A stretch of DNA of 60,445 nucleotides, the filler included, from Hausera hauseri (lineage: Eukaryota), in NCBI GenBank assembly GCA_046269625.1. It is 10 parts of 10 records of this genome, joined end to end, with 100 filler letters (N's around TTAATTAATTAA, not from the genome) between each part and the next. Parts side by side here need not be neighbours in the genome. Positions count along the whole stretch, not along the records: positions 41,025 to 51,064 come from JBJURY010248848.1; 9 more parts are not named here. One strand, written 5' to 3'. Positions 41,025 through 43,779 of this stretch are shown here, in pieces (within the stretch, counting starts at the first letter, position 1; every line of letters starts with the position of its first letter). The position numbers and the translations under genes are program-made. Below the pieces are notes generated by a model. That model worked only from the letters and a program-made list of their open reading frames with translations, had not been told where the DNA came from and searched no databases.

Positions 41025-43080
41025 CTAAAAACAAAGGAGAAAAGTTACTTCCTATATCAACAGCAAGAATTAATATCGTTGGACGGAATGGAATGTATGC
41101 TGAGACGATCTCGTAACATATTTCATTGCGGACTAATGCACGGACATTCTTCAATAATCAAACCAACAACCCTTCCGATTCCAATGAATTTGGAACGCCA
41201 GCATTGCAAGCAGGCCAGGGAAACCGGAAGATTAAAATGGGATAGTATGGAACTAGAGATGCAACCAGGAAAGATAATTAGGGTATATAAAGTAGTGGTT
41301 GGAGGGTTAGACATGCATAATGGACATCGTAATGGAGCAGAGTACTACACCGGAAAAGGATTAGAAGCAAATGTAGTAGTCGTGGATTTCTACGAATCAG
41401 AGATGCGATCACAAAAGGTAATGTGCCATAGTGTCACTAAGTTATACACTGAGAATCAAAAATGTCATTTACAAGACGGAACCTGTGCTTTTAGAAGCTC
41501 TGTTATAATATGGCAACCTTTCTGCGGAAGAAACTGTAACTTTATAAAAATTAAGGAATTGAAATTTAACGAAACTACCGGAAAACGATATGTAGATAAA
41601 TCTGATACCAATTCAAGGACACGCGAGGACGTAACAGAACATCCTACACCTACTATATTAATCTCTGACCAGCATGGACTACAATTCATTAAAAAGGAAA
41701 TGATCTATCGTTGTGAGATGGTGATGTTCGCCACCAGCTATGAAGCATTCTTCGTCGCAGAAACGGAAATAAATGCGAAAACTTACAAGCTAGAAACACA
41801 GGATATTCGAATTGAGAATTACCTAAAAAACAGAGACGATTACTTTTATTACAAATGGCAAATCGGAATAACCGAATTATATCACAAAATGATAACAAAT
41901 GATTGCAAATTGGATATGCAAATCATGAGGACAAAACTGGCTCCTATTCATGCTAACTGTGAGTTAGCTTCACTAATAGTTAACATGAGAGAAGGAATTT
42001 TCGGTCGAGTTACTGGTGACGTACGATTGACTTATGAATGTGAGAAGAGACGTACCAATCAACGTTGAAGAAAAACGTTGCATACAGGAACTTCCCGTTA
42101 TTTACCATAATACTCCGAGATTAGCCACGCCGCTTACTAGAGTGTTATTAGACAATTCAAAGGAACCAACAAACCTTAAAGATTGTAAAGCAAGTTTAGG
42201 AGAACCCAAGTTTAGATGTAGTGAAACGGATTTGGTTAGTCTGCCTAATGGAAGTGTTACTGCAGCTTCAAATAAATTAACAGAAACAAATCTCGCAAAA
42301 GAAGTTACCGACGATAAGTTTCAAGATACCTCGTCAAAGGGCATATATAGGCCTAAGGAAATTGAAGCCTTTAGACAATTTCTCGCTTTTCCGCGACAGC
42401 GGACACACGAATTAAATGGAGCCATGGCCTCCGTTGTAGACGACACTCGATATCAAGCTAAATGGGAATCATTGCTTGGCGTAAACCAATACCAGCGAGT
42501 AACCACAGAAATACTCTACAAAATTTGGGGACGATTTCTGATTTTTGGACAAGCCGCATCTGGATTTTTAACGATATATTTCCTAATACAAATGATTAAA
42601 GCCGTCATCCAAGCATTAATAAATGGGTGTGAAATATTTACAATGACAGGATTTTCATGTAAAATACTGACTGCAATCATAACCCCTTTTGGAAAGTTCT
42701 TGAAAGCATACAAAGAGAATAGACGAAAATCGGACATAGAATGCCATGTCATTTATTATAATCGTAAACGAAAAGGAAGGCCTATGTTCTTATACCTGCG
42801 GAAATTCACAAAACCTAATACACAAAGAAATAATTCAGATGATGACGAGCCTAAGGGAGAAGTACTTTCAAGAACAGACAGACATAAGACGTATTCCGTC
42901 ATTAAAGCACCATTGCCTATGCTACCTCCCACTGCTCCAGTCTATGAAGACTGTGACAAGCGATCAATGAGCTCATATCAGACAGAAATCTATAAAAGGA
43001 CAATTAGTTTAGAAGACCCGTACAAAGGAACGAAACGTTATGGAGTCCTACGGAAAATGTTATCGGCAGACCATGGATGA
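41025..43080 (+). pseudogene. env: Chuvirus-like (class III, gB-related) envelope glycoprotein, 5'-truncated, one frameshift near 42045
   Basis: ECMLRRSRNIFHCGLMHGHSS, CHLQDGTC..IIWQ..C, LYHKMITNDCKLD, GIFGRVTGD..YEC, CIQELPV..PLTRVL, KGIY..FP, WGRFLIFGQAASGFL plus TM segment follow the chuvirus-type G motif series. Confidence 0.85.
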
Positions 43081-43380
43081 CCCCAGAATATTGTATTCCC
43101 CGAGAGAACCTCGGAATATAGAGACTAAATCGCCTGTCCGGGAAAATCCAAGGTTAAAAACCTTCCGGAATATAGAACCACATACTAACAATCGAGAACC
43201 ATTAATTAGTACTCATGAAGTGGAAGAATTGAACATCCAAAACAACGAATTATATCCAAACGGAGAACTAAGACGATTATCGGAAAACATAGTATCCTCC
43301 CGGAAATCCGAATCAACGGACATAAAATATCGGCAACTAAACGCCCAAAAGCTGTATCAAACTGTTTAAGAACAGTAATA

Positions 43381-43779
43381 GAAGAGAGACCCTTCGCCAA
43401 AATCATTATCGAAAACTGGGAAGTTTATGCATTAAACGATACAGGTTCTGAGATGTCTTACATTAAAAATAATTCAGTACCTCAAACACTAAAAGAACAA
43501 TTATACCCACCATCTACAAAAAACCCAGGAAATACAGGAGCTTTTGACCAAATGTCAAAACCAATGTTCAAATGGAACCCAGAAGTTCAAATAGTTGGAC
43601 AGTTTTTCTATCATGAGTTTGCAGTTATGGAACAATTAACTGACGACGTAGTTTTAGGATATGGTGTAATGAAAAGACTGCCAAATATAGCAATTGACTT
43701 ACAAACAGGAAAATTAAAAGAAATCAGACTAAGTAAAGGCGTAAAAAACGCTAAGGAAAGGAAATTTGGAGAAGTGTGA
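43381..43779 (+). CDS. Retropepsin (aspartic protease) domain
   Basis: RPFAKIIIENWEVYALNDTGSEMSYI ... DVVLGYGVM. Confidence 0.85.
   Translation, partial: EERPFAKIIIENWEVYALNDTGSEMSYIKNNSVPQTLKEQLYPPSTKNPGNTGAFDQMSKPMFKWNPEVQIVGQFFYHEFAVMEQLTDDVVLGYGVMKRLPNIAIDLQTGKLKEIRLSKGVKNAKERKFGEV

What the first reader, a model, noticed from the sequence alone, without database searches (positions are those of the whole stretch)
41025..43460. Fusion glycoprotein upstream of the protease with no recognisable gag in between
Seen: the glycoprotein TM region ends near 42700, and the DTGS protease begins near 43390 in the same frame as the second glycoprotein ORF. About 220 codons of low-complexity sequence lie between, with stops or a frameshift and no CCHC knuckle or capsid-like motif. 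Known: the canonical order is gag-pol-env. Inference: the order is gag-env-pol, or Env is part of the same polyprotein, which would be a rare architecture. A tandem neighbour is unlikely because no LTR or PBS is visible between env and PR.
Basis: partly seen in the sequence, partly recalled or inferred. Interest (0 to 1): 0.78.

Follow-up and report, generated by a model that had tools for sequence, protein, structure and literature searches.

The report
Decayed gag-env-pol polyprotein retrotransposon copy
This is a broken, cut-off copy of an animal jumping gene whose virus-like fusion protein sits in front of its enzymes inside one long protein; the layout is unusual but already described from flatworms and a few other invertebrates.

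Summary
A herpesvirus-gB-type fusion glycoprotein (PF24664) lies directly before protease-RT-RNase H-integrase of a Ty3/gypsy element, with no capsid, CCHC knuckle, LTR or gap between them. In the closest env relatives, env and protease share one ORF (9 of 11 scanned top hits). Capsid and CCHC lie upstream of env in the same ORF (L001 3703 aa, L004 2693 aa, P0008, P0011). Here the contig begins about 30 residues inside env, so gag is cut off. The roughly 227 codons between env and protease are a decayed coding linker: two frame changes give a stop-free path, versus at least three in 1000 shuffles. This architecture is published: planarian Burro/GYPSM1 (env in frame between gag and pol; PMC6431247) and GAG-ENV-POL gB-type errantiviruses of flatworms, nematodes and bryozoans (PMC13524379). 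The element is a divergent member (RT-RNase H 39-43% identical to the relatives). One feature I did not find in print: after integrase, the family encodes a second membrane protein (signal-like segment, fibronectin-III-like domain, transmembrane helix).

The parts
40925..41024 (.). Artificial spacer between contigs; contig 8 starts at 41025, so gag, PBS and the 5' LTR lie outside the window
41025..42065 (+). gB-type (class III) envelope, N-terminal part of the ectodomain; starts about 30 residues after the mature N-terminus seen in relatives
   Evidence: Pfam PF24664 58-386, E 3e-20; aligns from residue 182 of P0004, whose AYDC start is at 153; profile A3 matches only herpesvirus gB chains in the PDB, 28 of 28 rows, weak E 0.1-0.9
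42031..42740 (+). Envelope C-terminal part with WGxF motif (42526) and transmembrane segment (42565-42621); separated from the first part by one frame break in the overlap
   Evidence: Pfam PF24664 392-608, E 4e-29
42741..43380 (+). Decayed coding linker (cytosolic env tail to protease): open 42031-43077, offset frame open 43013-43366 with an LYP motif near 43250, open again from 43219; no capsid, CCHC or LTR
43381..43680 (+). Aspartic protease, DTGS at 43438
   Evidence: Pfam RVP E 3e-4, above its cut-off
43780..44370 (+). Segment between protease and RT, weakly homologous to the same segment of relatives (Burro has a dUTPase-like domain here); no Pfam hit
   Evidence: PMC6431247
44371..45430 (+). 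Reverse transcriptase (YLDD) and RNase H, broken by stops and frame breaks
   Evidence: RVT_1 E 3e-28; RT_RNaseH_2 E 2e-33
45774..46850 (+). Integrase (zinc-binding, core, C-terminal part ending in a YxLR motif), broken
   Evidence: Integrase_H2C2 E 1e-13; rve E 2e-12
46871..48195 (+). Post-integrase membrane module: signal-like segment (46871-46927), fibronectin-III-like domain with two conserved Cys (47862-48083), transmembrane helix (48139-48195); broken
   Evidence: profile from six relatives hits here at iE 7e-5; hydrophobicity; alignment A4; FnIII identity is a lead only
48708..49283 (+). DEDDh-exonuclease-like ORF; the first acidic motif looks degenerate (by eye)
   Evidence: RNase_T E 0.03; profile from L001/L002 exonucleases iE 9e-4; tblastn to contig 3 ORF E 7e-10
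50461..50757 (+). RING-finger ORF
   Evidence: zf-RING_2 E 9e-8
50900..51064 (+). Polypurine tract (50900-50911) followed by TG at 50912: putative start of the 3' LTR, cut by the contig end
   Evidence: the only run of 11 or more purines followed by TG on the plus strand of contig 8; second LTR not available, so unconfirmed
24194..24535 (+). Fragment of another family member at the start of contig 6: BCL-2 BH2-like motif (by eye), internal signal, env N-terminus with a stop
   Evidence: tblastn of P0001/P0008/P0009 E 4e-6 to 3e-5; translation; BCL2-like profile alone only iE 0.41
117..4526 (-). Sister element on contig 1: RT to integrase plus the same post-integrase module; begins downstream of where env would lie
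   Evidence: 72.7% nucleotide identity over 2930 columns; 77% RT-RNase H identity

Best explanation
This is a 5'-truncated, mutationally decayed copy of a multi-copy Ty3/gypsy element of the gB-type GAG-ENV-POL (Burro-like) kind. The active form most likely made one polyprotein: Gag (capsid, CCHC), optional host-like domains, internal signal, gB ectodomain, transmembrane helix, cytosolic linker, protease, RT, RNase H, integrase, a second signal, an FnIII-like ectodomain and a transmembrane helix. Exonuclease-like and RING ORFs follow before the 3' LTR. SHOWN: the domain order in this copy; single-ORF continuity and upstream gag in relatives. INFERRED: (1) this copy's ancestor was also one ORF. 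(2) The ER threads the chain so that each lumenal module is bracketed by a signal and a transmembrane helix, keeping Gag and the enzymes cytosolic. (3) Signal peptidase releases Env at the conserved AxDC start and the viral protease releases the enzymes from the Env tail, much as in flavivirus or alphavirus polyproteins (general knowledge). (4) Env is then made from the genomic RNA without a spliced env message and allows cell-to-cell spread. This copy cannot make functional Env or Pol.
For: The best env hits among 1.84 billion representatives are polyproteins. Of the 12 best, 11 were scanned with Pfam: 9 carry env plus in-frame protease, and 3 of these also carry RT and RNase H. P0008 has a DTG motif at its end. 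Gag lies upstream of env in the same ORF in P0011 (Retrotrans_gag, CCHC), P0008, P0009, P0002, L001 and L004. Of 4 metagenome loci, 3 have env through integrase in one ORF; the fourth ends inside env. WGxF-to-DTG distance is 304 codons here and 131-391 residues in the 15 of 59 motif-bearing proteins that continue to a protease, none with a CCHC in the linker. The linker needs 2 frame changes for a stop-free path; 0 of 1000 dinucleotide shuffles need so few (minimum 3, mode 11; reverse strand 8). A YP motif lies 30-62 residues before DTG in 12 of 15 relatives and 62 codons before it here. In run X1, 25 contigs run on beyond the contig's 5' edge, and by eye their loose letters read in the env frame like the motif preceding this point in relatives. 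Post-integrase and exonuclease profiles built only from relatives hit contig 8 in the same order. Literature: PMC6431247 section 7; PMC13524379 sections 5, 6 (part 1 each) and 14.
Against: Gag is not seen in this copy and no whole genome is held. The env-protease frame is interrupted here. No listed contig bridges the linker (only 8 of 29,963 pieces shown). L003 has a stop between its gag ORF and env, so frames vary or decay within the family. The RT-RNase H tree leaves the two window elements on a long branch: nearest by path to the env-pol relatives, but on an open fork (the env-pol and no-env groups each at support 76-77); only the other seven env-pol rows form a firm clade. The 9 RT hits carry no env domain (that search was limited to 285-2000 aa). 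About half of the linker tested is the already-open env tail. No fold prediction was obtained. Processing, particles and infectivity are untested.
Confidence: 0.85

Rival explanations
1. The order is gag-env-pol, but in this lineage env and pol are separate ORFs joined by programmed frameshifting, read-through or splicing, so the offset frame at 43013-43366 is part of the design.
For: The frame changes in the linker are real in this copy. The lineage is distant from the intact relatives. L003 shows a stop between gag and env.
Against: Two frame changes in 738 nt is no more than the decay elsewhere in the element (2-6 per 738-nt window in pol). Every relative that reaches the protease does so in one ORF. 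Copies in run X1 differ from this one by many substitutions and indels.
Confidence: 0.09
2. The order is ENV-GAG-POL: a short, unrecognised gag sits in 42740-43380, as reported for oribatid mite elements.
For: PMC13524379 (methods) reports ENV-GAG-POL elements with short gag. About 227 codons is roughly capsid-sized.
Against: The family capsid profile gives no hit although it finds 5 of 5 left-out capsids. There is no Pfam hit and no CCHC. Composition is hydrophilic. Relatives carry gag upstream of env. The two Medioppia rows have F-type env.
Confidence: 0.02
3. Chance juxtaposition: env of an upstream tandem or nested element, or an assembly chimera, lies next to an unrelated pol.
For: The family is highly repetitive (29,665 contigs laid) and no bridging contig is listed. 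The RT is not firmly nested among the env relatives.
Against: No LTR, PBS or gap in the linker. Single relatives align colinearly from env to integrase. The post-integrase and exonuclease modules match the same relatives. The linker looks like coding sequence. Depth is continuous across it.
Confidence: 0.04

Closest known systems
Burro / GYPSM1 giant gypsy elements of planarians (Arkhipova and Yushenova 2019, PMC6431247, section 7 read; Grohme 2018 and Jurka 2007 not readable here)
   Same: Mononegavirus-like fusion glycoprotein in frame between gag and protease; BCL2-like motif before env in relatives (P0010 Bcl-2, E 1e-3, below cut-off) and probably in the contig 6 fragment; ubiquitin-like (L003) and ankyrin (P0151, 4844 aa) domains in relatives; accessory ORFs; decayed copies reported in Dugesia japonica.
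   Different: This copy shows one protease and spans only 9.9 kb from env to the polypurine tract. RT-RNase H is 39-43% identical to the polyprotein relatives, whereas six of those seven are 65-70% identical to P0002 and L004 is 50%. Burro itself was not compared by sequence. The section read does not mention a post-integrase membrane module or a DEDDh exonuclease.
GAG-ENV-POL HSV/gB-type errantiviruses of Platyhelminthes, Nematoda and Bryozoa (Chary and Hayashi, PMC13524379; sections 5 and 6 part 1, section 14, passages, and rows of two supplements seen)
   Same: gB-type env ahead of a Ty3/gypsy pol; multi-copy. By eye, the domain I-II pattern of the six Schmidtea rows resembles the window env and its relatives more than the bryozoan or nematode rows shown.
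   Different: That catalogue holds intact elements; this copy is decayed and truncated. The words polyprotein, in-frame, Burro and fibronectin do not occur in its main text.
Nematode endogenous retroviruses, NERV (Sacco et al. 2022; paper not held, seen only as cited in PMC13524379; the continuous gag-env-pro-pol ORF is recalled)
   Same: Env placed before pol in a metavirus.
   Different: Nematode clade; not compared by sequence.
Anakin BEL/Pao elements of mosquitoes (PMC7642597, search listing only)
   Same: Same chuvirus-like glycoprotein family.
   Different: BEL/Pao backbone with env after integrase (as in P0063, DUF5641 then env).
Bdelloid rotifer LTR elements with DEDDy exonuclease ORF3 (PMC5408684, passages read)
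   Same: An exonuclease ORF downstream of pol.
   Different: No env between gag and pol. The exonuclease here is of the RNase T/DEDDh type and looks degenerate in this genome.

Membership tests
Ty3/gypsy (Metaviridae) | Pol order protease-RT-RNase H-integrase with YxDD RT | tested here: met
Ty3/gypsy (Metaviridae) | Gag with capsid and CCHC knuckle | not testable with these tools
   Lies beyond the contig edge; no genome held; present in relatives
Ty3/gypsy (Metaviridae) | Two LTRs, PBS, polypurine tract, target-site duplication | tested here: inconclusive
   Polypurine tract plus TG at 50900-50913 only
gB-type GAG-ENV-POL errantiviruses | HSV/gB-type envelope | tested here: met
   PF24664; 28 of 28 PDB rows are gB, weak E-values; no fold model obtained
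gB-type GAG-ENV-POL errantiviruses | env directly upstream of pol, no gag between | tested here: met
gB-type GAG-ENV-POL errantiviruses | gag upstream of env | not testable with these tools
   Cut off in this copy; shown in six relatives
gB-type GAG-ENV-POL errantiviruses | Host in Platyhelminthes, Nematoda or Bryozoa | tested here: inconclusive
   A host PQBP1 exon in the window has two cestodes as best named hits, then one nematode, among only 5 hits of 50 candidates
Burro/GYPSM1 | env in frame with gag and pol in one polyprotein | tested here: inconclusive
   Broken here; a two-change stop-free path and the YP motif favour it; true in relatives
Burro/GYPSM1 | BCL2-like domain just before env | tested here: inconclusive
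   BH2-like motif by eye at 24194-24260 in another copy; profile iE 0.41
Burro/GYPSM1 | dUTPase-like domain between protease and RT | tested here: inconclusive
   Homologous segment present, no Pfam hit
Burro/GYPSM1 | Giant size (ORF1 about 4,900 aa, internal region up to 25 kb) | not testable with these tools
   5' half missing; env to polypurine tract is 9.9 kb
Burro/GYPSM1 | RT nested in the Burro clade | tested here: inconclusive
   Long branch on an open fork; no named Burro sequence in the tree
ENV-GAG-POL elements of oribatid mites | Short gag between env and pol | tested here: not met
Anakin (BEL/Pao) | env downstream of integrase | tested here: not met
   env is upstream of protease; no env match after integrase

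The most novel reading that the evidence does not exclude
Elements of this kind carry two membrane glycoproteins in one polyprotein: the gB fusogen before the protease and a conserved fibronectin-III-like type I membrane protein after the integrase. The second could be the attachment partner that class III fusogens such as herpesvirus gB need, giving a retrotransposon a two-component entry system, or it could be a cytokine-receptor-like decoy. All 7 relatives that extend past integrase continue in frame from a YxLR motif to a membrane segment near the C-terminus. Five of the 7 share a Cys-x2-Leu-x5-Tyr motif. L002 has a second copy between its protease domains. The window holds two clear copies and one probable copy. 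I did not find this module described (searches; main text of PMC13524379; section 7 of PMC6431247), but Grohme 2018, Jurka 2007 and Sacco 2022 could not be read.
Probability: 0.3. Interest if true: 0.65.

Novelty: new member of a known kind. Interest (0 to 1): 0.3.

Why it matters
The finding itself confirms a known, uncommon design and adds a deeply divergent, multi-copy lineage to it. It also supplies several intact single-ORF examples from public metagenomes (L001, L002, L004, P0002, P0004, P0151, P0154), which show the in-frame gag-env-pol polyprotein is not limited to the giant Burro elements. One of them, P0002, is deposited as a bacterial hypothetical protein. The part worth a second look is the conserved membrane module after integrase. 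If it is a surface partner of the gB-like fusogen, it would bear on how these elements enter cells and on how multi-component class III entry systems arose.

Tried and rejected
No whole genome is held, so contig 8 could not be extended. A word-indexed search for longer env relatives found none among 706 candidates; the exhaustive search did. Viral contigs gave nothing with the window env or alignment A2 (210 pattern matches, none confirmed). Run search: one holder, share 0.29, no RNA holder listed; it may be the source organism, so it is not independent support. A two-sequence capsid profile found only its own members and was replaced by a five-sequence profile with leave-one-out controls. The YP listing had an offset error and was discarded; one search is the corrected one. 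One search's per-window frame-change counts include in-frame stops as two changes, so they only roughly measure decay. The BCL2-like profile did not confirm the contig 6 fragment on its own (iE 0.41). The FnIII assignment has no significant library hit: Pfam fn3 E 0.13 and NDNF/Interfer-bind E 0.015-0.05 in one of five members, Atlas scores 0.89 and 0.82, which are leads only, and nothing relevant in the PDB. No structure prediction was obtained. Repeats in contig 8 are all short chance-level pairs. The Troyka paper (PMC12440569, first part read) and the Cer1 paper (PMC10309623, passages) do not bear on the gene order. PMC13238120 and PMC8532177 (passages) mention Burro without its domain layout. 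Earlier scan notes held nothing relevant. Rejected readings: hidden gag in the linker, tandem neighbour, Anakin-type BEL/Pao.

Full report
Setting. The window is ten contigs joined by N spacers. The finding lies at the very start of contig 8 (41025-51064). No whole genome is held. A host PQBP1 exon elsewhere in the window has two cestodes and then a nematode as named hits, 5 hits from 50 candidates. A flatworm host is plausible but not shown.

The observation. Two overlapping ORFs, 41025-42065 and 42031-43077, match consecutive parts of Pfam PF24664, Monjiviricetes fusion glycoprotein (model 58-386 and 392-608 of 653). A profile of 67 family members matches only herpesvirus gB chains in the PDB, 28 of 28 rows, each weak (E 0.1-0.9). 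After the transmembrane segment (42565-42621) come about 227 codons, then the protease (from 43381, DTGS at 43438, same frame as the second env ORF, five stops between 43078 and 43218). RT, RNase H and integrase follow in Ty3/gypsy order, all broken by stops and frame breaks. The linker has no CCHC, no Pfam family in any of three frames, no copy of the putative LTR, no PBS-like match and no gap. A capsid profile from five relatives finds each left-out capsid (5 of 5, E<=1e-19) but nothing in the linker or in the window.

Where gag is. Contig 8 begins about 30 residues inside the mature envelope: it aligns from residue 182 of P0004, whose AYDC start is at 153. In run X1, 25 contigs run on past this edge, and by eye their loose letters read in the env frame like the preceding motif in relatives. 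The start of contig 6 (24194-24535) holds the missing junction type from another family member: a BH2-like motif, an internal signal and the env N-terminus. The BCL2-like profile alone does not confirm it (iE 0.41).

What the relatives look like. An exhaustive search with the env C-terminal ORF found 215 proteins at E<=0.001. The top ranks are polyproteins. I scanned 18 of the 150 listed with Pfam, including 11 of the best 12. Nine of those 11 have env plus an in-frame protease; P0002, P0004 and P0007 continue to RT and RNase H. None of the 7 lower-ranked ones scanned has a protease. Cluster mates P0151 (4844 aa, with ankyrin) and P0154 (3003 aa) run from env through integrase in one ORF. A metagenome scan gave 4 confirmed loci from 599 pattern matches. 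L001 is one 3703-aa ORF: capsid, two CCHC, env, proteases, RT, RNase H, integrase. L004 (2693 aa) and L002 (3426 aa, 5' open) have the same order. L003 has gag and a ubiquitin-like domain, a stop, then env, and ends inside env. Single relatives align colinearly along contig 8 from env to integrase, and their N-terminal parts have no match in contig 8.

What the linker is. The WGxF-to-DTG distance is 304 codons here. It is 131-391 residues in the 15 of 59 WGxF-bearing stored proteins that continue to a protease motif (three are cluster mates of others), none with a CCHC in between. A stop-free path across 42700-43437 needs two frame changes; 0 of 1000 dinucleotide shuffles need so few (minimum 3, mode 11) and the reverse strand needs 8. 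About half of that stretch is the open env tail, which favours the result. A YP motif sits 30-62 residues before the protease motif in 12 of 15 relatives and 62 codons before it in the offset frame here. So the linker is decayed coding sequence equivalent to the env-tail/protease linker of the relatives.

Copy number and junction. In run X1, 29,665 contigs lie on contig 8 at 80% or more. Summed depth is 7,060-22,124 over env, 13,192 and 3,272 over the two linker bins, 3,454-36,449 over pol and as low as 23 in the accessory region. Env is thus about as common as pol in this family, though these figures are not copy numbers. No listed piece bridges the linker, so the junction is not independently proven.

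Downstream modules. After integrase lie a signal-like segment (46871-46927), a domain with two conserved Cys and an LxPxxxY-type motif (47862-48083) and a strong transmembrane helix (48139-48195). Profiles built only from relatives hit this domain in contig 8 (iE 7e-5) and contig 1 (2e-5), weakly in contig 3 (0.77), and hit the exonuclease-like ORF in contig 8 (9e-4) and contig 3 (1e-13). All 7 relatives that extend past integrase continue in frame from a YxLR motif to a membrane segment near the C-terminus; 5 of 7 carry the Cys-x2-Leu-x5-Tyr motif; L002 has a second copy between its protease domains. These seven are not all independent. The FnIII identity is a lead only. A RING ORF (E 9e-8), a polypurine tract and a TG end the contig.

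Against the simple picture. In a tree of 19 RT-RNase H rows, the two window elements form a long branch. They are nearest by path to the env-pol relatives but sit on an open fork; identity is 39-43% to those relatives and 43% to one env-less protein. The 9 RT hits carry no env domain, though that search excluded proteins over 2000 aa. I therefore call it Burro-like in design, not a Burro.

How it most likely works. Shown: domain order here; single-ORF continuity with gag first in relatives; paired hydrophobic segments around each lumenal module. Inferred from general knowledge of viral polyproteins: an internal signal after Gag sends the gB ectodomain into the ER, its transmembrane helix returns the chain to the cytosol, the protease cuts the enzymes free, and a second signal exports the C-terminal module. 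Env would then be made from genomic RNA without splicing. This copy is dead.

What is known. [quoted passage not shown] PMC13524379 (abstract, part 1 of sections 5 and 6, section 14, passages, rows of supplements 1 and 2) reports GAG-ENV-POL gB-type elements in Nematoda, Bryozoa and Platyhelminthes and ENV-GAG-POL in oribatid mites. Sacco 2022 and Grohme 2018 were not held; their text and supplements, and the figures of the papers read, may already mention the post-integrase module. Searches found no description of it. Exonuclease ORFs in LTR elements are known from rotifers (PMC5408684, passages).

Verdict. The open lead is the second membrane protein after integrase.

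Noticed in passing
window 46871-48195; window 269-1621 (-); window 9936-10400; L001 9880-11205; L002 9020-10279: Conserved post-integrase signal / FnIII-like / transmembrane module in frame with Pol in relatives; L002 carries a second copy between protease domains.
   Followed up: partly
window 9936-12926 (+) and 55657-56100 (+): A 997-aa open ORF on contig 3 runs from an FnIII-like/transmembrane start to a DEDDh-exonuclease-like domain with a degenerate-looking first motif and on to an unknown C-terminal domain, which recurs at the start of contig 10 (50% identity). 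L001 and L002 keep an intact-looking exonuclease as a separate ORF.
   Followed up: partly
window 24194-24535 (+): BH2-like motif, signal and env N-terminus of another family member end abruptly about 80 nt before the likely start (by eye, near 24590) of the host PQBP1 gene.
   Followed up: partly
P0002 (HBK71150.1): An intact env-pol polyprotein of this family is deposited as a hypothetical protein of a Flavobacteriaceae MAG, probably eukaryotic contamination.
   Followed up: no
P0001, P0003, P0004, P0009, P0011, P0151, L002: Many relatives carry two or more tandem aspartic-protease domains between env and RT, and some further ones after integrase.
   Followed up: no
P0045: A gB-type glycoprotein fused to N-terminal immunoglobulin domains (1000 aa).
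   Followed up: no
window 36385-40784 (-) and 16652-19032 (+): Two decayed, 69.5% identical DNA-polymerase-B-like regions (Polinton/Maverick-like by eye); a divergent TBP-like ORF lies at 30787-31323 (-).
   Followed up: no
window 50461-50757: RING-finger ORF just inside the putative 3' LTR; depth over the exonuclease-to-RING region is far lower than over env or pol, so accessory cargo differs between subfamilies.
   Followed up: no
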